DNA of 11,385 bases from a virus, in the UHGV virus genome UHGV-0346646, one strand, 5' to 3'. The translations under genes and the position numbers were made by a program. Shown here piece after piece: positions 1 through 10,272 of the stretch. A model generated the notes under the pieces. It was not told the origin of the DNA and did no database searches. It saw only the letters and a program-made list of their open reading frames with translations. Within the stretch, counting starts at the first letter, position 1. Each line of letters starts with the position of its first letter.

Positions 1-642
1 CGCTTCCACGGCGTTATTGATTACGCGCTTGCTGAAAGTGGCCCTGTGCTCTGAATAGATCGCCACCATTTCGCGGCTAAGTTCCATTGTGCTGACCGGA
101 CACCATACCCCGCCGCGCCATACGTGAACGATTTCACTTTCAGGATGTACGCAAACGCCATCAAAGCGATCGGCAAGCAGCTGCGCGCGCTCACTGTCCG
201 CCATCTGCGAAAGTTGCGCCTTTTGCTTTACCGGAAGCTCAATGACCAGACCATCAGAAAGATTCTGGCGCTCACGGGCCAGATATTCGCGCCAGTTCTC
301 CACCTTCTGACCGTGCATACCATCAGGGTAAAAATTTGCATCCTGTACGCCTGCCGCCGCCAGCTTCTGGCCAATCGCCTTTATCATTACTGGCGCAAGA
401 TATCCGGCCCTGAATATGCGCACGGATTTTCTGCCTTCCGGCACAATTTGCAGCTTATCCAGTTCTGATAACTGCTGCTCCCCAAGCCACACAGGAGGCT
501 CATTATCTCCGGCCATACGCGCATCATGTTCCTGCCATTGTTTCGCGTGTGCCCAGGCATCACTACCCGCAAAAATAATGACTTCTGTTCCTTTGTGTTT
601 TATGCCGCGTGACTGCTGTTTTACGTTCGGTGCCAGTTTCAT
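1..642 (-). CDS. hypothetical protein, 5-prime part only (gene continues past window start)
   Basis: ATG at 642-640 overlaps the stop of the upstream gene (ATGA). Frame stays open for all 214 codons down to position 1; checked by hand translation (MKLAPNVKQQSRGIKHKGTEVIIFAGSDAWAHAKQW...VWRGGVWCPVSTMELSREMVAIYSEHRATFSKRVINNAVEA). Absent from the ORF track because it has no stop inside the window. Function not recognised. Confidence 0.5.
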   Translation of the reverse strand, partial: MKLAPNVKQQSRGIKHKGTEVIIFAGSDAWAHAKQWQEHDARMAGDNEPPVWLGEQQLSELDKLQIVPEGRKSVRIFRAGYLAPVMIKAIGQKLAAAGVQDANFYPDGMHGQKVENWREYLARERQNLSDGLVIELPVKQKAQLSQMADSERAQLLADRFDGVCVHPESEIVHVWRGGVWCPVSTMELSREMVAIYSEHRATFSKRVINNAVEA

Positions 643-938
643 TTTTTACCCCTGAATCCTTTAATCATGGTTTTCATCTTCTGAATATTGGCGCGTGCTT
701 TCTCCCTGCTGGTGGGCACGTTACGCGGTACGGCCTGCACAAGAGAAAAATCACGGTCGAACTGATAAACAGGCATCACGCAATCATATTCGTAGCCTTC
801 ACGACGGTAGGTTACGCGCCGTTCCTCCACGCCCTTAATCATTACCGTGCCGCCGTACTTATCGCGGTAAATATCACCGCGCATGAATTTAGTGCGAGTT
901 TTGCCACTGGCAGTTAAGCCAGAATATTTAAGTTTCAT
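639..938 (-). CDS. hypothetical protein (99 aa)
   Basis: ATG at 938-936 with GGAGAA upstream; stop overlaps the start of the next minus-strand gene (ATGA at 639-642). Part of a translationally coupled minus-strand operon. No recognisable motif. Confidence 0.5.
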   Translation of the reverse strand: MKLKYSGLTASGKTRTKFMRGDIYRDKYGGTVMIKGVEERRVTYRREGYEYDCVMPVYQFDRDFSLVQAVPRNVPTSREKARANIQKMKTMIKGFRGKK

Positions 939-943
939 TATTT

Positions 944-1177
944 TTATTCTCCGGTGTGGGGCGCTTTATACTGGTCGTGTAATGTCTCTATTTCCTGCAA
1001 CTCATTTATTACAGGCTCAAGAAGCGTTATTAATGCCGTGACAATCCTTGATTTCTGTTTATCACGTTCATTATCTCCAAGCGTTTCAAGACATATGCGC
1101 AATATTTCCAACATATTTTCACTGTGAGAAAGTGCAAGAAATGCGCGGTCTATTGTTTCGTGGTAAATATCACGCAT
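944..1177 (-). CDS. hypothetical protein (77 aa)
   Basis: ATG at 1177-1175 preceded by GGGGA; stop at 944-946 lies 5 nt before the next gene start. Protein-like composition. Confidence 0.5.
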   Translation of the reverse strand: MRDIYHETIDRAFLALSHSENMLEILRICLETLGDNERDKQKSRIVTALITLLEPVINELQEIETLHDQYKAPHTGE

Positions 1178-1178
1178 A

Positions 1179-1613
1179 TTAATCCCCGTCCGTCGTTTTT
1201 CTTAAAATAACCTCTGTCACGAAATCAGCATAATCGGCGGCGATATTCAGTACATCAAGCCCCGTTGATTTATATTCTCTCGTGGAAAGTAAGAAAAAAT
1301 CCGCTCTAATAAGCTCTGGCATTGACGAAAGCGCATCAGCCGCATCATCAGGAACGCCGGAAAATTCCTGTTTCAGGGAATTAAAACGATCATCACGCAT
1401 AACCCCCCCATTTTCACAATCAGCAACAAGAATATTTTTAGCGTCATTCAGCGACCGCGTTGCGATGTATCGGATACATTCCAGGGCGAACTGTGTCCGG
1501 TCTTTCTGTTCTTCTCCCTGCGCAAGCTCTGCCGTGCATTCAATATCAATAAGCGCGTGCATCAGCGTAGTGAGTGCGGCGGCGGCTGCGTCCGGTGTGG
1601 TTTTATTGCACAT
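1179..1613 (-). CDS. hypothetical protein (144 aa from the ATG at 1613; track ORF starts further upstream at 1667)
   Basis: Internal ATG at 1613 is preceded by GGAGGGG at good spacing; the 1667 start has no Shine-Dalgarno. Overlaps the stop of the upstream gene by 11 nt. Function not recognised. Confidence 0.5.
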   Translation of the reverse strand: MCNKTTPDAAAAALTTLMHALIDIECTAELAQGEEQKDRTQFALECIRYIATRSLNDAKNILVADCENGGVMRDDRFNSLKQEFSGVPDDAADALSSMPELIRADFFLLSTREYKSTGLDVLNIAADYADFVTEVILRKTTDGD

Positions 1614-1833
1614 GTACCCCTCCGCATTTTTTTTCGTTAGAAATAAGCGTTCTTCTTTCCTGTTCATCGCTCAGGAATACGCAGACCTCACCGCTAAGGC
1701 GTTTAAGTAAGCCGATGATTGCCCCTGATTCGCTGTCGGTCATCATGCCAGGGTAATCCTCTGCCAGTGCGCAAATAACTTCGATTTGGTGGGCGCGTTC
1801 TGCTGCCTGTTGTAGTGTGATTTCCTGGCTCAT
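1603..1833 (-). CDS. hypothetical protein (76 aa)
   Basis: ATG at 1833-1831 overlaps the stop of the upstream gene (ATGA); GGGGG upstream. Confidence 0.45.
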   Translation of the reverse strand: MSQEITLQQAAERAHQIEVICALAEDYPGMMTDSESGAIIGLLKRLSGEVCVFLSDEQERRTLISNEKKCGGVHVQ

Positions 1834-2030
1834 AAGCCTACCCCCTGACGAATACGGGCAGCAAATACCATCACGCAGCCAGCCGGAGATTGCTGGCGTG
1901 CTTCCTGTTCGCTGGTGGCCTCAATGGTAATCACGCGCGGTTGTGCCGTGCTCAGGGCGATAAAACGCCAGATGTATTTATTCAGGTTGTGCGAGTCCCG
2001 CCCTTGCGGGTGTGTGGTATGATTTAACAT
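1830..2030 (-). CDS. small protein (66 aa), possibly Icd-like; family assignment is tentative
   Basis: ATG at 2030-2028 with GAGG 5-6 nt upstream; first gene of the minus-strand operon, downstream of a strong predicted promoter. It is also the C-terminal 66 codons of the long track ORF 1830..3116, which I consider a read-through artefact. Confidence 0.5.
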   Translation of the reverse strand: MLNHTTHPQGRDSHNLNKYIWRFIALSTAQPRVITIEATSEQEARQQSPAGCVMVFAARIRQGVGL

Positions 2031-2067
2031 AGCTACCTCGATACTTTCGCTATCGTTGGTGGTTAGA

Positions 2068-2100
2068 AGCCCTGCGAGTGGTAACGACACTTGCGGGGCT
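2068..2100. promoter_or_regulatory. 13-bp-arm inverted repeat (AGCCCTGCGAGTG / CACTTGCGGGGCT, 7-nt loop) in the leader of the minus-strand operon
   Basis: Read directly: the arms pair fully if two G-U wobbles are allowed. Sits between the predicted minus-strand promoter and the start at 2030. Confidence 0.4.
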
Positions 2101-2127
2101 TTGCATTTATGCACCTTGATAATCTCA

Positions 2128-2168
2128 AGGTGTAGCCCACTATATGCTTTAGGTGTGGCCCACGTCAA
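2128..2168 (-). promoter_or_regulatory. predicted sigma70 promoter for the minus-strand small-gene operon, overlapped by two direct repeats (AGGTGTAGCCCAC 2128-2140 and AGGTGTGGCCCAC 2151-2163)
   Basis: On the minus strand: -35 TTGACG (2168-2163), 18-bp spacer, -10 TATAGT (2144-2139). The direct repeats overlap the spacer and the start site, as operator sites would. Confidence 0.4.
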
Positions 2169-2170
2169 GG

Positions 2171-2199
2171 GTTTTATTTGTGCTTTTTCTGTGTATACT
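2171..2199 (+). promoter_or_regulatory. possible promoter for the ribbon-helix-helix gene
   Basis: -10 TATACT at 2194-2199; the -35 is weak (GTTTTA region). Divergent from the minus-strand promoter. Confidence 0.3.
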
Positions 2200-2229
2200 G
2201 TCCCCCACCAATCCAACAGAGGAATAGAA

Positions 2230-2409
2230 ATGGCAACGGGTACAACAAACGCAAAATCACAAGCTCTAAAGGCTCGTGTACCACACGAAATAGTAAACGC
2301 CATGGAATCAGTGAAAGAATCAGGCGAAAGCACATCACAATTCATCATTGCGTCAATGCAAGGCGAGATCAAACGCCGCCAGCGCCGCAAGGCCAAAGAG
2401 CAGGAGTAA
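2230..2409 (+). CDS. ribbon-helix-helix (Arc/MetJ/CopG-like) DNA-binding protein, 59 aa
   Basis: ATG at 2230 with AGAGGAA Shine-Dalgarno. Protein MATGTTNAKSQALKARVPHEIVNAMESVKESGESTSQFIIASMQGEIKRRQRRKAKEQE has the strand-helix-helix pattern typical of RHH repressors. Followed by tandem plus-strand terminators. Confidence 0.6.
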   Translation: MATGTTNAKSQALKARVPHEIVNAMESVKESGESTSQFIIASMQGEIKRRQRRKAKEQE

Positions 2410-2466
2410 CCATCACCAGCGCCGTGGTGTGAGTAACTACGGCGCATTGCTATGCAGGACAACACA

Positions 2467-2640
2467 ATGACCGATAAAGAATTGACCAAAACATTATCAC
2501 CGGCACGGAAAAGACGGCGCAGAAAGATAGAGCATGAATCAGAAAGATTCGCGCCATGTGCTTTTGCCCTTGAGCAATTCCTTAAAGAGTACAGGGAAAA
2601 GCGCTCATTGCAGGTATGGCAACGAACTGAACCTGACTGA
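2467..2640 (+). CDS. possible small basic protein (57 aa)
   Basis: ATG at 2467 with a weak AGGA upstream; Lys/Arg-rich (SPARKRRRRK). Lies between the RHH gene and the plus-strand terminators. Weakly supported. Confidence 0.3.
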   Translation: MTDKELTKTLSPARKRRRRKIEHESERFAPCAFALEQFLKEYREKRSLQVWQRTEPD

Positions 2641-2719
2641 TTGCATTGCCCACCAGCCGCAAATGTGGCATTGTTGGCAATGCTCATGCGTTGGGGATAA
2701 CGTGTAGCTTGTGTCGAGG

Positions 2720-2748
2720 GGCCACCGTAGCGGGTGGCCTTTGTTTTG
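2720..2748 (+). terminator. rho-independent terminator
   Basis: Stem GGCCACC / GGTGGCC with loop GTAGCG, followed by TTTGTTTTG. Confidence 0.6.
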
Positions 2749-2843
2749 CCCGTTATTCGGCAATTGTGGCGCTTCTCCACATGGTTGATATAATCCCACT
2801 GCTCAGATTCATTTTTTGCGCAGTAGGTTAATTGTTCACAAAG

Positions 2844-2877
2844 GCGCTCCGGCAACGGGGCGCTTTTTGTTTTTATT
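2844..2877 (+). terminator. rho-independent terminator (second of a tandem pair)
   Basis: Stem GCGCTCCG / CGGGGCGC (one G-U) with loop GCAA, followed by TTTTTGTTTTTATT. Confidence 0.6.
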
Positions 2878-2882
2878 AGTTT

Positions 2883-3116
2883 GTAGAAACCTGACTCAGA
2901 GATAATGCTCATATTCTGATTGCCGTCAGGGGTGTAAGTTAAATTTACTCCCTTTTTATCATCAAACATCTGCAACGCTCTGGCGTTAACAATATTGGTT
3001 TCACTCCCGCCAGTAAGGCCGGAAATAACCGGAATAATTTCGGCAAAATTTTGCAGATTCTGTTTTTCAGGACGAACGAAGCCCCGCCCTTGTTCGGGAG
3101 AATATCCAGTATTCAT
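2883..3116 (-). CDS. BRO-N / antirepressor-like N-terminal domain ORF, probably truncated or degenerate
   Basis: First ~78 codons of track ORF 1830..3116 (…DDKKGVNLTYTPDGNQNMSIISESGFYKLI) resemble the C-terminal half of a BRO-N domain from memory. The similarity ends where the plus-strand terminator at 2844-2877 is encoded; the remaining ~350 codons have Cys/Trp/Arg-rich antisense-like composition. True end unknown. Confidence 0.3.
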
Positions 3117-3168
3117 GGTTAGATCTCTGTATTAGTGGATGGGTGGCGGCTGTGTGCCGCCAGCCTGA

Positions 3169-3357
3169 TTAGTGAACTGCCTCGCAGCTGTCCTTCCATG
3201 CCAGAACTTCGGATAAAGACCAGCCAACGGAACGACCGCCCAGCTTACGCCGTGATGGGAATTGTCCGGCTTTTTCCAGGTGGTACCGACATGAGCGGCT
3301 CAGGCCTGTAAGTTGCTGACATTCTTTTTCACGTATAAAGCGATCTGTGCTTAACAC
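3169..3357 (-). CDS. alpA: AlpA-family (prophage CP4-57-type) transcriptional regulator / excisionase-like HTH protein
   Basis: GTG start at 3357-3355 preceded by GGGGGA. Protein (…QQLTGLSRSCRYHLEKAGQFPSRRKLGGRSVGWSLSEVLAWK) matches the AlpA pattern TG.SR.T.Y…G.FP…KLG.RSVGW..SE…W. Sits next to the integrase, as in P4-like islands. Confidence 0.85.
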   Translation of the reverse strand: MLSTDRFIREKECQQLTGLSRSCRYHLEKAGQFPSRRKLGGRSVGWSLSEVLAWKDSCEAVH

Positions 3358-3640
3358 AATTCCCCCTTTGTTGTTTCTTAAAGAGTCATTGGGTGGATTA
3401 TTGGGTTGGGTTGTGTCGGATTGTGTCAGGGTGTTTGTGGAATGGCAAACACTGGCGGCGGTCGTTTTACAGAAGCAGGGGAAATGAGAATAAAAACTCT
3501 TTTAATTCATTATGATGCAAAGGCATAAAATTTTACTTTTACGCCTTTTTTACATATTTTTAAGAGTGATTCGCCAGTGTATAAAAAAACAGTACACCTA
3601 TAAAAATCAAATGGTTATTACGATGGCTGATTTTTAACCC

Positions 3641-3700
3641 GTTGTTCCATTTTGTTCCTTGTTGTTCGTCGTTGTGTCTCGTTGTTTCACGTTGTCCGCA
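3641..3700. repeat. cluster of short direct repeats (CGTTGTT/CGTTGTC units) between the integrase and alpA
   Basis: Read directly: gttgttccattttgttccttgttgttcgtcgttgtgtctcgttgtttcacgttgtcc. Related TTGTGTC units occur at 3400-3440. Confidence 0.5.
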
Positions 3701-3722
3701 TCCTGAAAAATCGCAAAAAAAA

Positions 3723-4970
3723 TTATATTTCTCTGGCTATTGGCAATGTGGTTACGTTTTCATGTGTTCCCGCCAGTATCCCTAACCGCTCCGTCCACAT
3801 ATCCAGCGCGTCACGTTTCGCATCCAGATAACGGGAATGGTTATAGACTCGTTGCATCCCTGGCATCTGATGACCTGTAAGCTGCTCCACGACGTGAGGA
3901 TCCACGCCTAAATCGTTCAGCATCGTTGTAAAGGTGCGCCGGATGTCATGCAGTGACCAGTGAGGGTGTTTTAGCCTCCTGTGCGCTAATCTGCCGTACT
4001 GCGACACGCTTGTTTCCTGTTTCACTTCCCCCAGCAATAAGCCCGTGTGCCTGTTCTGCTCCACCAGCTGCGTGACGAACGGCAGTATTGCTTCCGGTAT
4101 GGGCCGGAATATTGCCACCTTCGTTTTGCTGTGTTCTTTCGGCACGGTCCAGAGCATTTCGGTAAAATCCCACTCGCTGATCTCCGATAACCTCAGTTCT
4201 ACCGTCCGGCATCCGAAAACAATCAGGAGGCGGATTAGTGCGACGTAGTAAGGGGAAAATATTTTTTTGTCCAGTGCCTGCAATAATTCGCCAAGTTCTT
4301 TGGTGCTTAAGACGCGCTCGCTTATATCCGGTTTTTTCCCAACGTCCGCCACACTCATATCATCAAGAACGTTGCTGATTGCATAGCGCCGCCTCCGGCA
4401 GAACTTAAGCGCCTGTTTGCACGTCTGTAGCAAGAATCCGGCAGTAACAGGCGTTCGCTTTGCCACCTGGTCAAAACAGGCCAGCCAGTGCCGTAGCTCG
4501 CATTTATCCAGCGGCATAGCACCAATGTGCTGTATTACGTGATTATTAAGGCGCTTTTTCAGGGCGGCATAATCCACGCGGTTTTCCTTTGCGTACGACT
4601 CAAGCCAGTAGGTGAGCGCATCGCCAACCGTTACCGGCTTTAACGCTTCCTGTACGGTGTAATTCATTTCATGACGTGGATTTTTCCCCTCTGCCAGCCA
4701 TGCGCGACACTGGGCGGCTTTTTCCCTGGCTGATTTCAGGCTCAGATCAGGATAATTTCCCAGCTTAATGCGTTCCGGTGGTGCCCCCCTTCCCGTTCCG
4801 GCCCTGTAAGTGAAATACCAGGTTAAAAGGCCACTGGTTGAATGCCTGACGCTCAGGTTTCCACCGTCATTAAGAAAGGCTGTTTTTTGGGCGGGTGTGC
4901 CGTTGATTTTCCTCAGCTGTGTATCGCTCAGTTTGTTAAGTGCTCTGCTCATAATTTTGATTCCGGTCAT
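3723..4970 (-). CDS. int: P4-type tyrosine integrase (site-specific recombinase, phage integrase family)
   Basis: Conserved C-terminal catalytic region HDIRRTF…GHQMPGMQRVYNHSRYLD (H-x-x-R and catalytic Tyr context) and an N-terminal arm-binding-type region like P4/CP4-57 integrases. Start is ambiguous: GTG 4973, ATG 4970 or ATG 4952 (MSRALNKLSDTQ…). Confidence 0.9.
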   Translation of the reverse strand: MTGIKIMSRALNKLSDTQLRKINGTPAQKTAFLNDGGNLSVRHSTSGLLTWYFTYRAGTGRGAPPERIKLGNYPDLSLKSAREKAAQCRAWLAEGKNPRHEMNYTVQEALKPVTVGDALTYWLESYAKENRVDYAALKKRLNNHVIQHIGAMPLDKCELRHWLACFDQVAKRTPVTAGFLLQTCKQALKFCRRRRYAISNVLDDMSVADVGKKPDISERVLSTKELGELLQALDKKIFSPYYVALIRLLIVFGCRTVELRLSEISEWDFTEMLWTVPKEHSKTKVAIFRPIPEAILPFVTQLVEQNRHTGLLLGEVKQETSVSQYGRLAHRRLKHPHWSLHDIRRTFTTMLNDLGVDPHVVEQLTGHQMPGMQRVYNHSRYLDAKRDALDMWTERLGILAGTHENVTTLPIAREI

Positions 4971-4972
4971 CA

Positions 4973-5009
4973 CAATTAACTACACCATTAACTACACCGA
5001 TCGTTGCAC
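4973..5009. repeat. direct repeat copy 1 (contains tandem AACTACACC units), immediately upstream of and overlapping the integrase start
   Basis: caattaactacaccattaactacaccgatcgttgcac. A near-identical copy lies 234 bp away at 5207-5242; the flanks share a degenerate ACAACGTG-GAACAA motif. Confidence 0.7.
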
Positions 5010-5206
5010 AAAGGGCTACAACGTGAAACAAGCTGGAACAAGGAAAATCACAAATCTGTTTATAATCAAAAACATAATGAACAACCTGAAACATTATGAA
5101 ACGGCAAAAAACACTAATTGATAAAATATGTCCTTTTATCACTACATCAAGGCAAGCCATTGATTTAATTAAATGATTTGCACTGCAAAAAGTGCTAAAA
5201 ATCGCA

Positions 5207-5242
5207 AATTGACTACACCATTAACTACACCGATCGTTGCAC
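5207..5242. repeat. direct repeat copy 2 of the integrase-upstream repeat
   Basis: aattgactacaccattaactacaccgatcgttgcac; one mismatch against copy 1. Confidence 0.7.
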
Positions 5243-5451
5243 TGTATGAAACAACGTGGAACAAATAGACACAAGAAATATACAGGCGGGTCATCTTTCC
5301 AGGGGGAAGCGCGCCAATTCATGAGGGGCGTTAATGTCGATATGGGGATCCCCATAACGGGGCTACCTGGCTTTTTTCCGGTTAAATGTCAATCAGGCTG
5401 GTGGGTTTTACATACCCTTGATCACCGTAATGATGATCCAGATGTGCGCCT

Positions 5452-5507
5452 TTCCACCAATGGTGGAAAAGCCCACAGCAGGCCGCCCAGCCTCCCCCAA
5501 TGGGGGA
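5452..5507. repeat. pair of related GC-rich palindromes (TTCCACCAATGGTGGAA at 5452-5468; TCCCCCAATGGGGGA at 5493-5507)
   Basis: Read directly; centres 41 bp apart. A third palindrome, ATGGGGATCCCCAT, is at 5342-5355. Candidate protein-binding or recombination core sites in the non-coding junction. Confidence 0.5.
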
Positions 5508-5515
5508 TTGTGGAA

Positions 5516-5684
5516 GAATCAACGGGTTAGGCCTTAATGGGCTGCGTGGTAATTATCAGCATCCAGAATATGACGGGTTATGTTTCCGACCTCTTCAATT
5601 TGAGGTTCCCGAAAATATCAACGGGTTAGGCTGGTTTCCCCGATGTTCGCCGCTGGCGAATTTCGAAAATATCAACCAGTTACC
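5516..5684. repeat. three direct repeats of an ATCAAC(G/C)(G/A)GTTA(G/C)(G/C) unit (5516-5533, 5608-5632, 5662-5684)
   Basis: gaatcaacgggttaggcc; cccgaaaatatcaacgggttaggct; ttcgaaaatatcaaccagttacc. The last copy overlaps the stop of the 93-aa gene. Confidence 0.5.
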
Positions 5685-5961
5685 GCCGCAACCGCTCCGG
5701 CTTCTTCCAGTGGTACGTAATTTTCTCCGTTTCCCGATACAGTGCCACGCGGCGATTGTAGGCCAGCATTTCAAGAACGCGGATCCGTATGTTGCGCATA
5801 TCCACATCATTAAGCTGGATACCATTACGGCGAATCACCTCAGCAACCACACGAACATAATTTTCGGCGGTCACGCTGTCCGGCTGCGTGGTCTGTTCGT
5901 CGGCCTGCTGGCTGATTCCGGCAACGCGGCGGATTAATCGCAGTATTTCGGCTTCTGTCAT
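5680..5961 (-). CDS. hypothetical protein (93 aa), last gene of the packaging-side module
   Basis: ATG at 5961-5959 with GGGGG 5 nt upstream; the track ORF 5680..6159 extends upstream through the cos copy and is not credible there. Protein MTEAEILRLIRRVAGISQQ… has no recognised motif. Confidence 0.5.
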   Translation of the reverse strand: MTEAEILRLIRRVAGISQQADEQTTQPDSVTAENYVRVVAEVIRRNGIQLNDVDMRNIRIRVLEMLAYNRRVALYRETEKITYHWKKPERLRR

Positions 5962-5994
5962 TGTGCCCCCATCGTTCTGATAGTCTGGTGTCGT

Positions 5995-6066
5995 CGGGTC
6001 CTTCCTGGAATTATGGCCCGTTACGGGGCGGCGACCTCGCGCGTTTTCACTATTTATGAAAATTTT
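5995..6066 (+). other. lambda-type cos site, copy 1 (cosN with cohesive-end sequence GGGCGGCGACCT at 6026-6037)
   Basis: gttacgGGGCGGCGACCTcgcgcgttttcactatttatgaaaattttt is near-identical to the lambda genome junction (…GTTACG / GGGCGGCGACCTCGCGGGTTTTCGCTATTTATGAAAATTTTCCGG) as I remember it. Confidence 0.75.
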
Positions 6067-6075
6067 TCGGGATCC

Positions 6076-6172
6076 ATGTCCGGTTTCTCTGCAAGTTAAC
6101 CATATGAAAAATATAAAAACATGCTTTCCATGAACCGGACATGCGCAAAAAACAGACACTAAAACCGGACAT
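6076..6172 (+). promoter_or_regulatory. cosB-like repeats: ATGTCCGGTT (6076-6085, inverted), AT-rich spacer, AACCGGACAT (6134-6143) and AACCGGACAT (6163-6172)
   Basis: One inverted plus two direct 10-bp sites with an A/T-rich stretch between the inverted pair, paralleling lambda cosB (R3 - IHF site I1 - R2 - R1). Lies directly after cosN copy 1. Confidence 0.5.
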
Positions 6173-6240
6173 CGAACCAGTTAACCGAAAGTGTGCACAA
6201 ATCACATGCATTGCTGCGAGTGATTAACAAGTTATCGGCT

Positions 6241-6675
6241 TTACTGTTCTGTATCGGCTGATTGCTCCATGCTGGCACGGCGAACGCTTACGGCATGACG
6301 CCACCCAGCCAGAAAGCCAGCCATTTTATTTCGTGCCTTGCTCACATCTTCCGGTGAATAGCCGTAAATCTGCAAACCTTCATCAAATCGATGTTCTGTT
6401 TCTTCACTGGAGTACTCGTCACGCTCAGATGAAAGCAGCCTGGCAAACATAATTTTTTCCAGCGCACTGGTTTCTACGTGATATCTGATGGCCTCAAGAC
6501 GGCTTTTACCTGAAGACCAAAGCAATGTATGCCCGATGTGATAACCGCCAGACTTTCCGCGATCCGCATTAAGATACGGCATCCCCTGTTTGGTCCATGC
6601 GCGAATAGTGGTTCTGTTAACCTTGAAATGTTCAGCTATTTCCTGCTGACTTACAAAACAAGCTTTATCAATCAT
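6241..6675 (-). CDS. lambda Nu1-like small terminase-type protein (N-terminal winged-HTH DNA-binding domain), 144 aa
   Basis: ATG at 6675. N-terminus VSQQEIAEHFKVNRTTIRAWTKQGMPYLNADRGKSGGYHIGHTLLW aligns by eye with lambda Nu1 KKQLADIFGASIRTIQNWQEQGMPVLRGGGKGNEVLYDSAAVIKW. Shorter than Nu1 (181 aa). Lies about 90 bp downstream (minus strand) of cosN copy 2. Confidence 0.7.
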   Translation of the reverse strand: MIDKACFVSQQEIAEHFKVNRTTIRAWTKQGMPYLNADRGKSGGYHIGHTLLWSSGKSRLEAIRYHVETSALEKIMFARLLSSERDEYSSEETEHRFDEGLQIYGYSPEDVSKARNKMAGFLAGWRHAVSVRRASMEQSADTEQ

Positions 6676-6744
6676 AATGTTACCTTAACTGCATGGTTAA
6701 ATATTAATCAAGTGGTGGTGGTGTCACCTTCACGGAAAAACGTC

Positions 6745-6807
6745 ATAAATAGCGAAAACCCGCGAGGTCGCCGCCCCGTAACGGGCCATAATTCCAGGAA
6801 GGACCCG
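6745..6807 (-). other. lambda-type cos site, copy 2, inverted relative to copy 1 (cohesive-end sequence at 6765-6776 read on the minus strand)
   Basis: Reverse complement reads cgggtccttcctggaattatggcccgttacgGGGCGGCGACCTcgcgggttttcgctatttatg; 47 bp are identical to copy 1 and about 70 bp match with two mismatches. Confidence 0.75.
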
Positions 6808-6808
6808 T

Positions 6809-6830
6809 AAAAAAGCCGGATTTCTCCGGC
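6809..6830 (-). terminator. rho-independent terminator ending the capsid operon
   Basis: Minus-strand hairpin GCCGGA-GAAA-TCCGGC followed by TTTTTT, just after the stop at 6837. Confidence 0.65.
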
Positions 6831-6836
6831 CTTGTC

Positions 6837-7250
6837 TCAGATGGTTTTCAGTATGCGATCGATGTCGCCGTCATCGCCCTGGTTTCTGCCATCGTATGCC
6901 ATGCCAGCTGATACGGCTTGCGGGCTGTGCATGTCCATAAAGTTTTCAAAGGCTGCGGTAAGCTCTGGTGCAACCTTTGGGCGCTCCTGCTCTATGGTCA
7001 TGTTCAGGATTTCACGAGCATTATCGACGCTAATACATGGCACGTTTGCCATTGCACGTAACAGCGGCTGATAGTCTTTATGCTCATGAAGCGCCATAAT
7101 CGCATCAGCGCGCGGCTTGTCCTGCTCTTCCAGTTTGTTTAGTTGATATACGGCCTCATAGGTTGATAAACCTCTGTCAGCCATTGCCCGCGCTTCGGCT
7201 TTAAATTTACTCGCCAGCGGTAGCGTCATGATGCTTTCATTCGTTGCCAT
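6837..7250 (-). CDS. hypothetical protein (137 aa), last gene of the capsid operon; possible scaffold-like or capsid accessory protein (speculative)
   Basis: ATG at 7250 with GGGGG 5 nt upstream; predicted helix-rich and acidic. Function not recognised. Confidence 0.55.
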   Translation of the reverse strand: MATNESIMTLPLASKFKAEARAMADRGLSTYEAVYQLNKLEEQDKPRADAIMALHEHKDYQPLLRAMANVPCISVDNAREILNMTIEQERPKVAPELTAAFENFMDMHSPQAVSAGMAYDGRNQGDDGDIDRILKTI

Positions 7251-7262
7251 CGTTCCCCCTGC

Positions 7263-7598
7263 TTATCGGGCCAGCGGCTGAACGGATACGCCGGAACCCG
7301 CAAAGGCGGCGCATTTTTTCGCATCGGTGTCGACGCTCTCAGGCCAGTTAACGGCGGCAATATTGAATATCCCCGTCTTGTAACACTGTGCTGATTTCTG
7401 CTTTGACGTGTCCACAGGGTACGAGGTCAGATAAACAGCCTTGCCAGATTCCTGACCATCCCACGGCTTAAACTCGCCATTGTCCGCCAGCATCAGCGGG
7501 GTAAATTCCTGAATAACGCCAGCATCAGCGGCAAAATGTACCAGCGTCGTGGCGACCTGCTGACTGCCTGCAAATAACTCAATGTATGGAGTGTCCAT
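7263..7598 (-). CDS. head decoration protein, lambda gpD family
   Basis: TPLMLADNGEFKPWDG…YKTGIFNIAAVNWPES…AKKCAAFAGSGVSV aligns by eye with lambda gpD TPLMLDTSSRKLVAWDG…YKSGTFRYEDVLWPEA…TKKRTAFAGTAISI. Similar length (111 vs 110 aa). GGGGG Shine-Dalgarno. Confidence 0.8.
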   Translation of the reverse strand: MDTPYIELFAGSQQVATTLVHFAADAGVIQEFTPLMLADNGEFKPWDGQESGKAVYLTSYPVDTSKQKSAQCYKTGIFNIAAVNWPESVDTDAKKCAAFAGSGVSVQPLAR

Positions 7599-7609
7599 AG
7601 AATCCCCCG

Positions 7610-8665
7610 TTAACCAATTTTGACGGTAACAAATTTGCGAATATCTGCCGGAACCGGCTGCGGTGCGCTGTGCGTCTGCACGTACTCAATCGCCGGATCG
7701 CCGTCCTCAATCCAGTTTTTCGGGTAAAACATGTTTTGCGTTGCGCCCGTTCTTACTGCGTCCTGATCCATAATCGCACCATAGGCCACCAGCCCTTTAT
7801 TGTTGGTGTTGCCCAGGACAAGCAAATCAGGCTCAAGGAAATATTTTTCTGTGCCGTCGCTGTCAGTGTATTTGCCGGAATAGACGATAAGGGCAATATC
7901 GCCCAGATAGCCTTTAAAGCTCACCACTTCGCCCAGGTTTTTACAGGCCAGCTCTGCGGCGGACTCTGAACCACGGGAAAGATCGTACAGCTCACGGAAT
8001 TTTTTAAAGCTGCGTAACGTTCGCCATACCTCAGCGCCCATAATCATGACGTTTGCGGGGCAACCAGCCTGATCGGCGTATAGTTCGATATCATAGATTG
8101 GATCGTGGGTTTCTTTGTCCTGCTCTGACCATTTTTTCCCGTCGGCCTGCTCTATGATGTTTTTTTCCGGTATCTTCCAGTCGATTTCATAGCGCTCTAT
8201 GCCTTCGCCTTCAATGATGTTTTTTCCGGTCGTTACCGCATTTACCGCCAGCCATTCCACGCGCGCTTTTATGGCGTTTATCTGGCGGCGCATATTGCCA
8301 GTAATCAGGCGCATACGGCGATAGGTAGGGTCGTTAAGCTGTGCCGGATCTTCTCCAGCCATGCGCATGATGGTTTTCGTTGGATCGATTTCGTGCTTTG
8401 GCTTCATGTAGCCAGGTTTAATCGTGCTGGTTTCGTACCCTTTATCGCGCTGAACCTGGCTACCCACCATAGGCGAACAAAACGCCGACATGGTGACTTC
8501 TTCAATGTCCAGGGTATCCAGCATGATGTTTTGCGTGCTGAATGTCGCCACGTTCGGGAAAAACAGCGTGGTAAACAGCGGACTGAATTTAAATTCCGCA
8601 ATATCCCCGCGATTCAGGTACGCAAAAAGCTGGTTAGTGTTAAGTGCCATTGCTTTTACTGTCAT
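7610..8665 (-). CDS. major capsid protein, lambda gpE family
   Basis: 351 aa with FKFSPLFTTLFF, PGYMKPKHE, DPTYRRMR, SFKGYLGDIALIVYSG, YPKNW and GDPAIE motifs matching lambda gpE (FKFDPLFLRLFF, PGYVKPKHE, DPAYRRRR, SYKGMYGDVAIVVYSG, YPKNW, GDPARE) at the same relative positions. Confidence 0.9.
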   Translation of the reverse strand: MTVKAMALNTNQLFAYLNRGDIAEFKFSPLFTTLFFPNVATFSTQNIMLDTLDIEEVTMSAFCSPMVGSQVQRDKGYETSTIKPGYMKPKHEIDPTKTIMRMAGEDPAQLNDPTYRRMRLITGNMRRQINAIKARVEWLAVNAVTTGKNIIEGEGIERYEIDWKIPEKNIIEQADGKKWSEQDKETHDPIYDIELYADQAGCPANVMIMGAEVWRTLRSFKKFRELYDLSRGSESAAELACKNLGEVVSFKGYLGDIALIVYSGKYTDSDGTEKYFLEPDLLVLGNTNNKGLVAYGAIMDQDAVRTGATQNMFYPKNWIEDGDPAIEYVQTHSAPQPVPADIRKFVTVKIG

Positions 8666-8871
8666 TATTCACCCCCGTGAACCTGATTCATACCCAGCGC
8701 CGCGCGTAAATAGGCGCGTACCTGCCAGCCTGTTGACGGCTCAACCATCGCCAGCGGATCAAGTCCTGCCGCAATGCCTGCTTTTACGTTCTGCTGGTGG
8801 CGTTCCTTGAGCGCCTTCACGATGTCGGGGCTTATGTACACCGAAACACCGCCTTTTTTCTCTTCAGCCAT
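8665..8871 (-). CDS. hypothetical protein (68 aa), first gene of the capsid operon
   Basis: ATG at 8871; stop overlaps the capsid gene start by 1 nt (TAATG). Shine-Dalgarno spacing is long (AGAGGA ~12 nt upstream), so the start is uncertain. Confidence 0.45.
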   Translation of the reverse strand: MAEEKKGGVSVYISPDIVKALKERHQQNVKAGIAAGLDPLAMVEPSTGWQVRAYLRAALGMNQVHGGE

Positions 8872-8904
8872 AGTAAGAAATTCCTCTTTGACTTAAAAAA
8901 TCAT

Positions 8905-8953
8905 AACTGGATGTTCATCCAGCTCTGATTATAATCATGATTGCATTTTGTGC
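8905..8953 (-). promoter_or_regulatory. predicted capsid-operon promoter with overlapping palindromes
   Basis: Minus strand: -35 TTGCAC (8953-8948), 16-bp spacer, -10 TATAAT (8931-8926) inside the palindrome GATTATAATC. The perfect inverted repeat CTGGATG-TT-CATCCAG (8905-8920) lies at about +1 to +16. Confidence 0.4.
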
Positions 8954-9036
8954 AATGATGTTGAGTTGCGTTGCAAATTATGAAATGATTATCCCGATCA
9001 TGTGTGTCAGTGCACCAAAAAGCCTCATATGCAAAA

Positions 9037-9073
9037 GCCCGATAAGCCACCTCTGACCTTATCGGGCTTTTTT
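9037..9073. terminator. orphan terminator-like hairpin in the 415-bp intergenic region
   Basis: GCCCGATAAG - 11-nt loop - CTTATCGGGC followed by TTTTTT on the plus strand (AAAA precedes it). No obvious plus-strand gene upstream. Confidence 0.35.
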
Positions 9074-9248
9074 ATCTGCCTGCAAAGATGTCGAACGAAA
9101 ATTAACCACAACCATCATCTTTTTTGCATCAAAACAATTAAAAACAATAAATTACGCTCATGATGATGATGACGATAAAATCACAAAAATGCGCTTTTTT
9201 CCGCGCCTCCCGCCCCGTGTTCAGGCCCACCCCGCCAGGAGGACCCGT

Positions 9249-9271
9249 AAAAAAGCCGGATTGCTCCGGCT
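9249..9271 (-). terminator. rho-independent terminator after the SSB gene
   Basis: Minus-strand hairpin AGCCGGA-GCAA-TCCGGCT followed by TTTTTT. Sequence is near-identical to the terminator module at 6791-6840. Confidence 0.6.
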
Positions 9272-9286
9272 TCTGTCTCTCGTCGC

Positions 9287-9709
9287 TTAAAACGGTATGT
9301 TATCCCCGTACGGATCATCATTCCCCGCCTGTTGTTTTGCCCTGTTCAGCGCGTCAGTAGCCTGGCCCTGTTGACCTTTTTTGCCGCCCAGTCGCGCCGT
9401 TCGCGCACTGATTACACTGTCTGCGATAACCTGCCAGCCCTGCCGCGTTTCTCCGTTCTGCCCAGTCCACTGGCTGATCTGCATGTTACCCGCCACGCTC
9501 AGGAGTTCACCCTTGCGGTGCCTTTCCAGTGCTTCGGCCTGTCTGCCAAATGCCAGGACGGATAACCACATCGTCGCCGTTCCGTCATCTGCCTGGCTGC
9601 ACGGAAGGGGGACCGCCATACGCGCCAGCGTCATCGGTGTGCCCTTGCTGGTCTGTTTTACCTGCGGGTCGTCCACCAGCCGCCCGTAAGCTGCTATCTG
9701 TGCTGTCAT
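9287..9709 (-). CDS. ssb: single-stranded DNA-binding protein (SSB, OB-fold)
   Basis: Aligns by eye with E. coli SSB: G.L..DP.V, W..V..FG..AE, RKG, W.G..G..R. C-terminal acidic tail ends NDDPYGDNIPF (compare SSB …DFDDDIPF). GAGGTGG Shine-Dalgarno. Confidence 0.75.
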   Translation of the reverse strand: MTAQIAAYGRLVDDPQVKQTSKGTPMTLARMAVPLPCSQADDGTATMWLSVLAFGRQAEALERHRKGELLSVAGNMQISQWTGQNGETRQGWQVIADSVISARTARLGGKKGQQGQATDALNRAKQQAGNDDPYGDNIPF

Positions 9710-9765
9710 GATTCCACCTCTCCGGTTTTAACGTTGATGGTTGTTACCTGTTCCGCTTCGGCAAT

Positions 9766-9984
9766 CTACCGCTCTGTCAGCGTGGCAAAATTTGCCGCCG
9801 TCGTGGTCATGAATGCGCTTATCAGTTCGGGATGTGCTTTCGCGTATCCTTCCCCCGCGTGGCGGTCTATCGTTCTGATTGCCACCTTTAAAGCGTGCTC
9901 TGTCATGTCTAACGCGCGATATTTCGGTTCTGTTCTGTCTCTGCGTTTTTTGAGTGATTTATTAAATTTCCCTGAAGTGTGCAT
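9766..9984 (-). CDS. hypothetical small protein (72 aa or shorter from an internal Met)
   Basis: ORF between the origin and ssb; the Shine-Dalgarno is poorly placed, so the start is uncertain. Confidence 0.4.
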   Translation of the reverse strand: MHTSGKFNKSLKKRRDRTEPKYRALDMTEHALKVAIRTIDRHAGEGYAKAHPELISAFMTTTAANFATLTER

Positions 9985-10033
9985 ATTTATTTTTACCCCC
10001 TCGTTTAAAAAGTTTTGAGTTGTGCCTCCCCTT

Positions 10034-10259
10034 GTCTACCTTATCTACCTTAGTGGCCCTCATGCCAGTAATGGCGCGGCTTTCAGCGGGGTAGAGTGCT
10101 TTTATCCACTATCTACCCCGTGTCTACCTCCCTGTCTGATTCAGGTAAAATCAGGTAGAGAGGGTAGATAGTGGGTAGACAGTAAAAAAAGGCTATCTAC
10201 CTAACTTAATGCACTGAATTAAATGTATTTTTCTTTACTCAGGTAGACAGGGTAGACAG
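10034..10259. repeat. iteron cluster, putative replication origin (about 11 copies of GGTAGA(C/G/T)AG in both orientations)
   Basis: TCTACC at 10035, 10044, 10112, 10123 and 10196; GGTAGA at 10089, 10154, 10163, 10174, 10242 and 10251. Immediately downstream of the primase/helicase stop at 10273. Confidence 0.7.
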
Positions 10260-10272
10260 CAATTACAAAAAA

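What the first reader, a model, noticed from the sequence alone, without database searches (positions are those of the whole stretch)
3641..3700. CGTTGT-type direct repeat cluster between the integrase and alpA
Several tandem CGTTGTT/CGTTGTC units lie just downstream of int and upstream of the alpA promoter region. Related motifs (ACAACGTG / GAACAA) recur on the other side of int near 5015-5045 and 5246-5275. Repeats on both sides of int could be arm-type recombinase sites or AlpA sites.
Basis: seen in the sequence. Interest (0 to 1): 0.35.

Follow-up and report, generated by a model that had tools for sequence, protein, structure and literature searches.

The report
Probable AlpA operator repeats in satellite
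The repeat cluster is real and conserved: six 10-bp-spaced copies of a GAACAA-type motif that also recur at the alpA promoter and in both arms of the element's attachment site, most likely binding sites for the small regulator/excision factor AlpA of an EcCICFT073-type phage satellite, which is an ordinary design for such elements.

Summary
Observation confirmed. Bases 3640-3699 hold six head-to-tail 10-nt units (minus strand, consensus tGrAACAAyg) at an exact 10-bp period. No run of three or more occurred in 500 dinucleotide shuffles. The window is the excised, circular form of an EcCICFT073-type PICI, 99.9% identical to the copy between roxA and phoQ in E. coli HM670. It therefore carries an intact attP with core AAATATGTCC at 5124-5133. 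Each lies next to a doubled ACTACACC-N4-ACTACACC motif. That doubled motif matches the annotated arm repeats of P4 in layout and changes with the integrase clade, so it is the likely Int arm-type site. A further array sits on the predicted alpA promoter (3409-3428). All 52 distinct related int-alpA spacers keep the arrays while the spacers between units vary. The motif flavour follows the AlpA allele, not the Int N-domain. The mapped TorI sites of KplE1 have the same design. Best reading (about 0.6): AlpA operators of the excisionase type, serving autoregulation and excision. Binding is inferred, not shown. This is a new member of a known kind, of modest interest.

The parts
3640..3699 (-). 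Array B (the finding): six head-to-tail 10-nt units, consensus tGrAACAAyg, starting 23 bp after the int stop codon. Proposed high-occupancy AlpA operator.
   Evidence: kept with 3-6 units in all 52 distinct related spacers
3399..3438 (-). Array A: two strong units TGACACAATC (3428-3419) and CGACACAACC (3418-3409), flanked by weak in-register units. It overlaps the -10 and start region of the predicted alpA promoter.
3420..3448 (-). Predicted sigma-70 promoter of alpA: TTGCCA, 17 nt, TGa-CACAAT. The -10 hexamer is the 3' half of an array-A unit.
   Evidence: TTGCCA-17-[CA]ACAAT is kept in all 52 distinct spacers; no transcription start data
3169..3357 (-). alpA, 62 aa, Phage_AlpA winged-helix protein. 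Proposed binder of the arrays.
   Evidence: Pfam PF05930 E=9e-18; PDB 8c3t 'AlpA family' E=2e-6; model topology H-H-beta-beta-H
3520..3551 (.). Conserved hairpin/terminator between array B and the alpA promoter.
   Evidence: minus-strand RNA -16.6 kcal/mol, z -5.9; plus-strand RNA followed by U6; pairing kept through substitutions in alignment A1
3723..4952 (-). int, P4-family tyrosine integrase with an N-terminal arm-binding domain.
   Evidence: Pfam Arm-DNA-bind_3 and Phage_integrase; RefSeq annotation of the identical copy
4979..4998 (+). Int-proximal doubled motif ACTACACC-ATTA-ACTACACC (12-bp period). Probable Int arm-type sites.
   Evidence: counterparts of the P4 'attP arm sequence repeat' pairs
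5004..5043 (+). attP int-proximal array: four in-register units (two strong: TGAAACAAGC, TGGAACAAGG), lying between the arm pair and the core.
5078..5116 (+). Degenerate second array (TGAACAACC, TGAAACATTA, TGAAACGGCA, AAAAACACTA) next to the core.
5124..5133 (.). attP crossover core AAATATGTCC. The matching attB lies at the phoQ stop codon, upstream of roxA.
   Evidence: 10-bp overlap of the two junction alignments; K-12 attB AAATATGCCC
5212..5231 (+). Int-distal doubled motif ACTACACC-ATTA-ACTACACC. Probable Int arm-type sites.
5247..5276 (+). attP int-distal array: TGAAACAACG, TGGAACAAAT, AGACACAAGA.

Best explanation
The cluster is an operator array for AlpA, the element's own small winged-helix protein. 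AlpA would bind one monomer per 10-bp unit, head to tail and cooperatively, bending the DNA as excisionase-type recombination directionality factors do. The same motif at the same 10-bp period occurs in three functional contexts. (i) Array B (3640-3699) lies between the int stop codon and a conserved terminator hairpin, 221-225 bp upstream of the promoter units. (ii) Array A (3409-3428) sits on the -10 and start region of the predicted alpA promoter. Together these would mediate the AlpA autoregulation shown experimentally for the 98%-identical EcCICFT073 module. (iii) Three- to four-unit arrays sit next to the Int arm-type pairs in both attP arms. There AlpA would shape the attL/attR complexes for Int-dependent excision. 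SHOWN here: the repeats, their periodicity, their positions relative to int, alpA, the attP core and the arm pairs, their conservation, and their co-variation with the AlpA allele. INFERRED: that AlpA is the binder, the promoter position, and the direction of the regulatory effect of each array.
For: (1) Exact 10-bp head-to-tail arrays far beyond chance. This is the stated hallmark of RDF operators, and 186 Apl, P2 Cox and P4 Vis are dual-function RDFs with arrays both at att and at a promoter (PMC7498355). (2) The window is a circularised EcCICFT073-type PICI with an intact attP, so the clusters upstream of int lie in the two attP arms. (3) Architecture shared with P4-family systems. In KplE1, the experimentally mapped TorI sites are GTTCG/GATCG units at 10-bp period beside an Arm-DNA-bind_3 integrase gene. 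P4 attP has four CGGA units at 10 bp between its annotated arm pair and the core. CP4-57 has GTCCG units. In all four systems the int-proximal array reads GT[TC]C[GC] on the int coding strand. (4) All 52 distinct AlpA1-type int-alpA spacers (71 loci) keep array B (3-6 units) and array A (2-3 units), while inter-unit spacers and flanks vary and copy number changes by whole 10-bp units. (5) Co-variation. AlpA1 elements use G[AG][AC]ACAA in the arms and in arrays A and B. AlpA2 elements use C[GA]AAC(AA) both in the arms (cspD- and rcnR-type Int) and in a 2-3-unit CGAAC-N5 array upstream of alpA2. The roxA- and cspD-type Int N-domain strands are identical. (6) In EcCICFT073, AlpA supplied in trans activates a PalpA fusion, and its overexpression triggers Int-dependent excision (PMC6092414). 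AlpA must therefore act on DNA in this spacer, and the arrays are its only conserved repeated motif.
Against: No binding data exist. Array A overlaps the -10 and start site of the only good promoter prediction, which would normally give repression, whereas the published effect is activation. Array B is more than 220 bp upstream of that promoter, an unusual distance for a simple activator. RDF sites on both att arms, and outside the arm pair on the distal arm, are atypical. The same paper found no AlpA effect on a Pint fusion that should contain the proximal arm array. AlpA2/cspD elements carry a different 10-bp array ([AG]AATATC[GT] x3) at the position of array B that is absent from their arms, so not every array after int follows the simple model. 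The flavour co-variation rests on two AlpA alleles and could reflect shared ancestry. The fold search of a single-sequence model gave only weak MerR/TnrA-type winged-helix matches and did not retrieve TorI or Xis.
Confidence: 0.6

Rival explanations
1. The 10-bp arrays are arm-type binding sites for the N-terminal domain of Int. Array B would then let Int regulate alpA or form an extended recombination complex.
For: Arrays occur in both attP arms. Three contiguous units resemble lambda P'1-P'3 (established knowledge). The ACAA core is shared by elements with different AlpA alleles. P4 also carries extra annotated arm repeats inside and at the start of int.
Against: A different motif, ACTACACC x2 at 12-bp period, occupies the positions of the P4, CP4-57 and HE-PICI arm pairs. 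It changes with the Int clade while AlpA stays the same (L012 versus L014). One arm-binding domain is unlikely to have two specificities. The array flavour differs between roxA- and cspD-type elements whose Int N-domain strands are identical. Arrays A and B have no core or arm pair nearby. In KplE1, the 10-bp arrays are the RDF sites and the arm-type sites are a different motif.
Confidence: 0.12
2. The arrays are bound by a host protein, for example an OmpR/PhoB-family response regulator that recognises tandem direct repeats one helical turn apart. Alternatively they act mainly as intrinsically bent DNA, tying satellite excision and induction to host physiology.
For: G[AT][AT]ACA-like half-sites at 10-bp period resemble OmpR boxes such as GAAACA (recalled from memory, not tested). 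The ACAA core is common to elements with different AlpA and Int variants. The surrounding DNA is AT-rich, 27-31% GC at 3500-3650.
Against: The arrays keep a fixed register with the element-specific arm pairs, at offsets of 10, 20 and 30 bp. The flavour changes with the AlpA allele. Homologous positions in KplE1 are occupied by the element's own RDF. AlpA alone activates PalpA in trans.
Confidence: 0.1
3. Arrays A and B are the landing site of the still unidentified helper-phage inducer of alpA, possibly a helper Xis/Cox-like protein. AlpA itself would act elsewhere.
For: Helper phages switch on alpA by an unknown factor, and in EcCIMP1 helper-dependent induction persists without alpA. In P4, three TTAAAG units at 10-bp period lie upstream of vis; from established knowledge these are the P2 Cox boxes through which the helper activates the satellite. 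Xis/AlpA cross-talk is documented. The lambda X1 site ATGTTGTGTTTT shares GTTGTGT with an array-B unit.
Against: The same motif in both att arms of the satellite points to the satellite's own factor. The helpers are diverse (lambda, phi80, CFT073 phage 4). The lambda resemblance is a single 7-mer.
Confidence: 0.08
4. Array B is a neutral tandem repeat produced by replication slippage, with no function.
For: Unit number varies from 3 to 6 among relatives, in whole-unit steps.
Against: The cores are conserved while inter-unit spacers diverge. The motif recurs at four other places in the same register logic. The 3' end of the array keeps a fixed distance of 221-225 bp to the promoter units in 50 of 52 variants.
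Confidence: 0.03

Closest known systems
TorI (RDF) sites in attL of the KplE1/CPS-53 prophage of E. coli K-12, with the IntS integrase
   Same: The integrase is P4-type with an Arm-DNA-bind_3 N-domain. The RDF sites are 8-bp units at exact 10-bp period in blocks of three (caGTTCGtc atGGTTCGct tcaGATCGtt). They read GT[TC]C[GC] on the int strand, as in the window's proximal arm. The arm-type sites are a separate motif.
   Different: TorI sites are on the int-proximal arm only and overlap the int promoter, where TorI represses intS. Here arrays sit on both arms and two further arrays sit at the RDF's own gene. TorI and AlpA are only distantly related (26% identity, E=8e-5; TorI does not reach the Pfam AlpA model).
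Dual-function RDFs of P2-like phages and P4: 186 Apl, P2 Cox, P4 Vis
   Same: They are small DNA-bending proteins whose operators are direct repeats 10-11 bp apart. There is one array at att for excision and another at a promoter region for transcriptional control (PMC7498355). Vis is the P4 homologue of AlpA.
   Different: Apl and Cox repress the lysogenic and lytic promoters, whereas PICI AlpA is reported as a positive autoregulator. The array B position, downstream of int and upstream of a terminator, has no described counterpart.
P4 attP (Pierson and Kahn arm repeats, as annotated in NC_001609)
   Same: Co-oriented doubled 12-bp arm repeats lie on both sides of the core at about 75 and 134 bp (window: about 93 and 140 bp). 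A 10-bp phased array lies between the int-proximal pair and the core.
   Different: The motif sequences differ: ATGCCCCC versus ACTACACC, and CGGA versus GAACAA. No array was seen after the distal P4 pair.
Doubled motif tgTGTATTGCantgTGTATTGCa in attP of helper-embedded PICIs (PMC10111431)
   Same: There are two co-oriented copies of a 12-bp-period doubled motif at fixed distances (81 and 132 bp) on either side of the attP centre. The authors propose they bind the four Int arm domains, or AlpA.
   Different: That paper reports the motif as absent from other PICIs. Here an analogous but unrelated doubled motif is found, and it is accompanied by 10-bp arrays that the paper does not describe.
AlpA binding element of Pseudomonas aeruginosa AlpA (antiterminator)
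   Same: An AlpA-family winged-helix protein recognises a short bipartite element (GGGACG-N5-GGTA) inside a promoter. Array A likewise lies inside or on the predicted alpA promoter, and a conserved hairpin lies nearby.
   Different: The ABE is a single element between -35 and -10 and loads an antiterminator onto RNA polymerase. Here there are multi-unit arrays, also present in the att arms. Antitermination by PICI AlpA was not tested.

Membership tests
RDF/excisionase operator arrays (lambda Xis, P2 Cox, 186 Apl, P4 Vis, KplE1 TorI type) | Direct (head-to-tail) repeats spaced one helical turn (10-11 bp) apart, with several adjacent units | tested here: met
   Six units at exactly 10 bp in 3640-3699; 2-4 units in the four other arrays; no chain of 3 or more in 500 shuffles; only period 10 gives chains
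RDF/excisionase operator arrays (lambda Xis, P2 Cox, 186 Apl, P4 Vis, KplE1 TorI type) | Located in an att arm next to Int arm-type sites | tested here: met
   Arrays at 5004-5043 and 5247-5276 adjoin the ACTACACC pairs on either side of the core at 5124-5133. The same module occurs on both arms of cspD- and rcnR-type elements. Array 3640-3699 itself is not in an att arm.
RDF/excisionase operator arrays (lambda Xis, P2 Cox, 186 Apl, P4 Vis, KplE1 TorI type) | For dual-function RDFs: a second array at a regulated promoter | tested here: inconclusive
   Array A overlaps the predicted TTGCCA-17-CACAAT promoter of alpA, and array B lies 221-225 bp upstream. The promoter is only predicted; there are no transcription start data.
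RDF/excisionase operator arrays (lambda Xis, P2 Cox, 186 Apl, P4 Vis, KplE1 TorI type) | A cognate small winged-helix RDF is encoded by the element | tested here: met
   alpA, 62 aa, Pfam Phage_AlpA E=9e-18; wHTH topology in the model; the PDB fold search was weak
RDF/excisionase operator arrays (lambda Xis, P2 Cox, 186 Apl, P4 Vis, KplE1 TorI type) | Motif co-varies with the RDF rather than with the integrase | tested here: inconclusive
   The G[AG][AC]ACAA (AlpA1) versus C[GA]AAC (AlpA2) flavours match in arms and alpA-proximal arrays, independent of Int clade. Only two alleles were compared, so shared ancestry is not excluded.
RDF/excisionase operator arrays (lambda Xis, P2 Cox, 186 Apl, P4 Vis, KplE1 TorI type) | Cooperative binding and bending by the RDF; RDF required for excision | not testable with these tools
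   Only indirect evidence: AlpA overexpression gives Int-dependent excision of EcCICFT073 (PMC6092414)
Arm-type Int sites of P4-family heterobivalent tyrosine integrases | Lie in the att arms within about 150 bp of the crossover core | tested here: not met
   Array 3640-3699 is about 1.4 kb from the core, beyond int. The arm arrays do meet this feature.
Arm-type Int sites of P4-family heterobivalent tyrosine integrases | Family-typical layout: co-oriented doubled repeats at 12-bp period on both sides of the core | tested here: not met
   That layout is occupied by ACTACACC x2 at 4979-4998 and 5212-5231, not by the 10-bp arrays
Arm-type Int sites of P4-family heterobivalent tyrosine integrases | Motif co-varies with the Int N-terminal arm-binding domain | tested here: not met
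   The array flavour differs between roxA- and cspD-type elements with identical N-domain strands, and the core is unchanged in the diverged rcnR type, whereas the doubled motif changes there. The sample of clades is small.
Iterons of a replication origin | Tandem repeats next to the replication initiator gene and an AT-rich unwinding region | tested here: not met
   A separate set of tandem repeats lies at 10030-10281 beside the primase gene 10273-11364. Array B lies between int and alpA.
Host OmpR/PhoB-type response-regulator boxes | Match to a known regulator consensus and dependence on that regulator | not tested
   The resemblance to OmpR half-sites is recalled from memory only; no tool here scores it

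The most novel reading that the evidence does not exclude
Arrays A and B are the cis element through which the still unidentified helper-phage inducer switches on alpA. A helper Xis/Cox-like winged-helix protein would bind the 10-bp repeats, as P2 Cox binds the three 10-bp-spaced TTAAAG boxes upstream of P4 vis. AlpA would then take over the same sites for positive feedback and excision. That would make satellite induction in Gram-negative PICIs a case of excisionase cross-talk.
Probability: 0.1. Interest if true: 0.7.

Novelty: new member of a known kind. Interest (0 to 1): 0.35.

Why it matters
AlpA is the master switch of Gram-negative PICIs. It is needed for induction, excision and transfer, yet the papers I could search do not define its DNA targets. 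The factor by which helper phages turn it on was still unidentified in the 2018 paper, and my searches found no later identification. A defined operator motif (tGrAACAAyg at 10-bp period), with mapped copies at the alpA promoter, after int and in both attP arms, gives ready-made probes for several tests. These are gel shifts, footprints and reporter mutagenesis for AlpA; for separating Int arm sites (ACTACACC pairs) from RDF sites; and for asking whether helper proteins use the same sites. The module is present in at least 861 of 5,426 complete E. coli genomes. If the assignment is right, it is a routine extension of the excisionase paradigm to this satellite family rather than a new principle.

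Tried and rejected
- The genome-contig scan with Int returned a single, near-identical Shigella locus, so it gave no diversity. I used the E. coli and IMG/VR collections instead.
- My first motif pattern (GRAMACAA) was mis-specified and gave only chance hits. I corrected it.
- tRNA search: none. The att site is not in a tRNA gene; it lies at the phoQ stop codon.
- Rfam at gathering thresholds: no family in the window.
- The consensus promoter scan found only one acceptable minus-strand site in the spacer. I could not place a convincing promoter just downstream of array B or upstream of int, so the activation geometry stays open.
- The conserved block TTACTG..TATACA..GCGAATCAC..TTAAAA (about 3555-3596) fits neither a good sigma-70 promoter nor the IHF consensus by eye, and is left unexplained.
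- A literature search for the PDB entry 8C3T (AlpA family) found nothing relevant. Searches for the PICI inducer or AlpA binding sites found no mapping.
- The AlphaFold single-sequence model (pLDDT 74) gave only weak MerR/TnrA/GlnR winged-helix matches (E of 0.15 or worse) and did not retrieve TorI or Xis.
- Two extra 2-unit chains at 9132-9147 and 1415-1430 were inspected and judged to be A-rich or coding-sequence chance matches.
- I first labelled the element a capsid-forming PICI. I corrected this to EcCICFT073-type (capsid plus decoration genes only) after reading the gene content. The AlpA2 comparison elements L019 and L020 are the capsid-forming type.
- The iteron, neutral tandem-repeat and Int arm-site readings were considered and set aside for the reasons given under rival explanations.

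Full report
**What the window is.** int (3723-4952, minus strand; Arm-DNA-bind_3 plus Phage_integrase) and alpA (3169-3357, minus; Phage_AlpA, E=9e-18) are followed around the sequence by several other genes. These are a D5-type primase, SSB, a lambda-E-type capsid gene, a head-decoration gene and an HTH protein. The whole window is 99.9% identical to an element integrated between roxA and phoQ in E. coli HM670, but circularly permuted. Window 1-5133 and 5124-11385 align to the two halves of the integrated copy with a 10-bp overlap. The window is therefore the excised, circular (or concatemer-junction) form and carries an intact attP. Its crossover core is AAATATGTCC (5124-5133). The empty site in K-12 reads AAATATGCCC and starts at the phoQ stop codon.

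The int-alpA module is 98.4% identical to the one next to roxA in CFT073. The gene content (capsid plus decoration protein, no portal or large terminase) matches the description of EcCICFT073. I infer that this CFT073 locus is EcCICFT073; the paper gives no coordinates or flanking genes to confirm it. At least 861 of 5,426 complete E. coli genomes carry most of the region.

**The observation.** The + strand at 3640-3699 is CGTTGTTCCA TTTTGTTCCT TGTTGTTCGT CGTTGTGTCT CGTTGTTTCA CGTTGTCCGC. On the minus strand, the direction of int and alpA, this gives six 10-nt units: GCGGACAACG, TGAAACAACG, AGACACAACG, ACGAACAACA, AGGAACAAAA and TGGAACAACG. TRF and the repeat finder both report period 10. A 5-unit chain of [AG][AC]ACAA at exact 10-bp spacing never arose in 500 dinucleotide shuffles, where the longest chain was 2 units and the mean number of chains was 0.05. 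Periods 7-9 and 11-14 give no chains at all.

**Other copies of the motif.** The same motif at the same period occurs at four further places:
- Array A, TGACACAATC CGACACAACC (3428-3409, minus strand).
- The int-proximal attP arm, with ACAA at 5008/5018/5028/5038 on the + strand.
- A degenerate run at 5078-5116.
- The int-distal attP arm, TGAAACAACG TGGAACAAAT AGACACAAGA (5247-5276).

**A second repeat class, and why it is the better Int arm site.** A 75-nt module is duplicated about 74 bp on either side of the core (4974-5048 and 5207-5281). Each copy starts with ACTACACC-ATTA-ACTACACC, a 12-bp period, followed in fixed register by the 10-bp array. Several comparisons point to this doubled motif as the Int arm site:
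- The phage P4 GenBank record annotates "attP arm sequence repeats" as just such co-oriented 12-bp tandem pairs on both sides of its core: AGATGCCCCCAA-TTATGCCCCCAA and ATATGCCCCCTT-TTGTGCCCCCAC.
- CP4-57 has TAGGCCCA x2 at 12 bp.
- Helper-embedded PICIs have TGTATTGC x2 at 81 and 132 bp from the attP centre, interpreted as probable Int arm-domain sites (PMC10111431).
- Among relatives of this element, the pair is ACTACACC for the roxA-, abgR-, tqsA-, yifB- and cspD-type integrases. It is GACCACAC for the diverged rcnR-type integrase, although that element carries the same AlpA allele as a cspD-type element.

The doubled motif therefore follows Int, which is what arm-type sites should do.

**What the 10-bp arrays resemble.** Recombination directionality factors bind head to tail to direct repeats one helical turn apart. 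The dual-function ones (186 Apl, P2 Cox, P4 Vis) have one array at att and another at a promoter (PMC7498355). In KplE1, the integrase has the same arm-binding domain family. Its experimentally mapped TorI sites are 8-bp units separated by 2 bp, with GTTCG/GATCG cores: caGTTCGtc atGGTTCGct tcaGATCGtt. P4 attP has four CGGA units at exactly 10 bp (3973-4007) between its int-proximal arm pair and the core. CP4-57 has GTCCCG/GTCCGA units. Read on the int coding strand, the int-proximal arrays of all four systems are GT[TC]C[GC]; in the window they are GTTTC and GTTCC. These resemblances are leads drawn from sequence. Only the TorI sites are experimentally mapped.

**Conservation.** Seven divergent spacers align with invariant AACAA cores and variable inter-unit spacers. 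In 71 loci with AlpA1-type alpA (52 distinct spacers, 18 distinct arrays, 29 distinct units), every one has array B with 3-6 in-register units. The consensus is t-G-r-A-A-C-A-A-y-g. G at position 2, which was not used for detection, occurs in 22 of 29 units. Every locus also has array A. Copy number changes by whole units. TTGCCA-17-[CA]ACAAT is kept in all 52 spacers. The distance from the last B unit to the -10 unit is 221-225 bp in 50 of them and 233 bp in the other 2. The CFT073 copy has an array identical to the window's.

**Which protein binds the arrays.** Two AlpA alleles are available for comparison.
- AlpA1 elements use G[AG][AC]ACAA in both arms and in arrays A and B.
- AlpA2 elements, with either cspD- or rcnR-type Int, use C[GA]AACAA in both arms. 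They also have a conserved 2-3-unit CGAAC-N5 array about 150 nt upstream of alpA2, whose spacers vary between variants.
- The roxA- and cspD-type Int N-domain strands are identical (GGNLSVRHSTSGLLTWYFTYR), yet the flavour differs.

The flavour thus goes with AlpA rather than Int. This is suggestive only, because it rests on two alleles and shared ancestry is not excluded. Experimentally, in EcCICFT073, AlpA supplied in trans activates a PalpA fusion but not Pint, is required for transfer, and when overexpressed triggers Int-dependent excision and replication. Helper phages switch alpA on by an unidentified factor (PMC6092414).

**Proposed mechanism and its weak points.** I commit, at about 0.6, to AlpA filaments on these arrays. 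Arrays A and B would serve autoregulation of alpA, and the arm arrays would serve excision next to Int bound at the ACTACACC pairs. The difficulties are these:
- Array A lies on the -10 and start region of the only good promoter prediction (TTGCCA-17-TGaCACAAT, 3448-3420). That placement suggests repression rather than the reported activation.
- Array B lies more than 220 bp upstream and is separated from the promoter by a conserved hairpin at 3520-3551 (minus-strand RNA -16.6 kcal/mol, z=-5.9).
- A plausible but untested resolution has three parts. AlpA would nucleate cooperatively on the six-unit array B. DNA bending, looping to array A, or counter-silencing of the 27-31% GC spacer would then raise transcription. 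Occupancy of array A at high AlpA levels would cap it.
- Arrays on both arms, and outside the arm pair on the distal arm, are unusual for an RDF.
- AlpA2/cspD elements carry an unrelated 10-bp array ([AG]AATATC[GT] x3) where array B would be, and it is not found in their arms.

**Other checks.** The window has no tRNA gene and no Rfam family. The AlpA model has a winged-helix topology (pLDDT 74), but the structural matches are weak. By sequence, the closest solved structure is an "AlpA family phage regulatory protein", 8c3t.

**Verdict.** This is a real, conserved and statistically unambiguous set of helically phased repeats. They are best read as AlpA (RDF-type) operators of an EcCICFT073-type PICI, distinct from the probable Int arm-type pairs. 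The design is that of known dual-function excisionases, so this is a new member of a known kind. The sites do not appear to have been mapped in the papers I could search. They would be useful handles for the open question of how helper phages induce these satellites.

Noticed in passing
window 3520-3551: A conserved hairpin lies between array B and the predicted alpA promoter. It is strong as minus-strand RNA (-16.6 kcal/mol, z -5.9). As plus-strand RNA it is followed by U6, so it could be a bidirectional terminator that insulates alpA from int read-through. Pairing is kept through substitutions in relatives.
   Followed up: partly
window 3555-3596: A highly conserved block (minus strand TTACTG..TTTTTTATACACTGGCGAATCACTCTTAAAA) lies between array B and the hairpin. 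It fits neither a good sigma-70 promoter nor an IHF consensus by eye. Its function is unknown.
   Followed up: partly
L010/L011/L013 and IMG/VR loci L093-L140 (AlpA2-type, cspD-site elements), just 3' of int: A different 10-bp phased array ([AG]AATATC[GT] x3, e.g. TAGAATATCGGGGAATATCTGCAAATATCTTC, or ATAAATCGTCGAATATCGGCAAATATCGACGA in variants) occupies the position of array B. It is absent from those elements' att arms, and its binder is unknown.
   Followed up: partly
L012, L014, L119, L126 upstream of alpA2: Variants with an extra gene between int and alpA carry two GTGATATCAC palindromes followed by a GC-rich hairpin with a T-run immediately before alpA. This suggests a different regulatory logic (a palindromic operator plus a terminator).
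   Followed up: no
window 5995-6059 and 6743-6807; 6794-6838 and 9235-9279: A 65-bp inverted repeat (97%) flanks the HTH-containing ORF 6241-6675, and there is a 46-bp direct repeat (91%). In addition, 5994-6172 is 93% identical to PhiR12 phages and 9084-9253 is about 90% identical to Stx phages. These may be packaging (cos-like) or regulatory mimicry of helper phages.
   Followed up: no
window 10030-10281: Several short tandem repeats (CCTTATCTA, GGTAGACAG and others) lie beside the primase gene 10273-11364. This is probably the replication origin with its iterons.
   Followed up: no
window 1830-3116 (minus strand): A 428-aa ORF has no Pfam hit. The RefSeq copy annotates only its last 66 aa as an Icd-like protein, and places two small plus-strand genes (YlcI/YnfO family and a hypothetical) inside it. 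It is unclear which reading is real.
   Followed up: no
L002 (E. coli NCCP 13894, NZ_CM167691.1): Two copies of a related satellite lie in tandem, so an attP-like junction sits inside the chromosome between them.
   Followed up: no
window 5124-5133 / K-12 L091 about 2800-2817: The attachment core AAATATG starts at the TAA stop codon of phoQ, so integration occurs at the very 3' end of phoQ and upstream of roxA. Related integrases of 80-86% identity use abgR, tqsA, yifB/ilvL, cspD and rcnR sites, while the attP arm up to the core stays almost unchanged.
   Followed up: partly
L018 (phage P4) 9176-9205: The repeats annotated as 'ori type 2 repeat' are three TTAAAG units at 10-bp period upstream of vis, the AlpA homologue. 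From memory, these correspond to the P2 Cox boxes through which the helper activates P4.
   Followed up: partly
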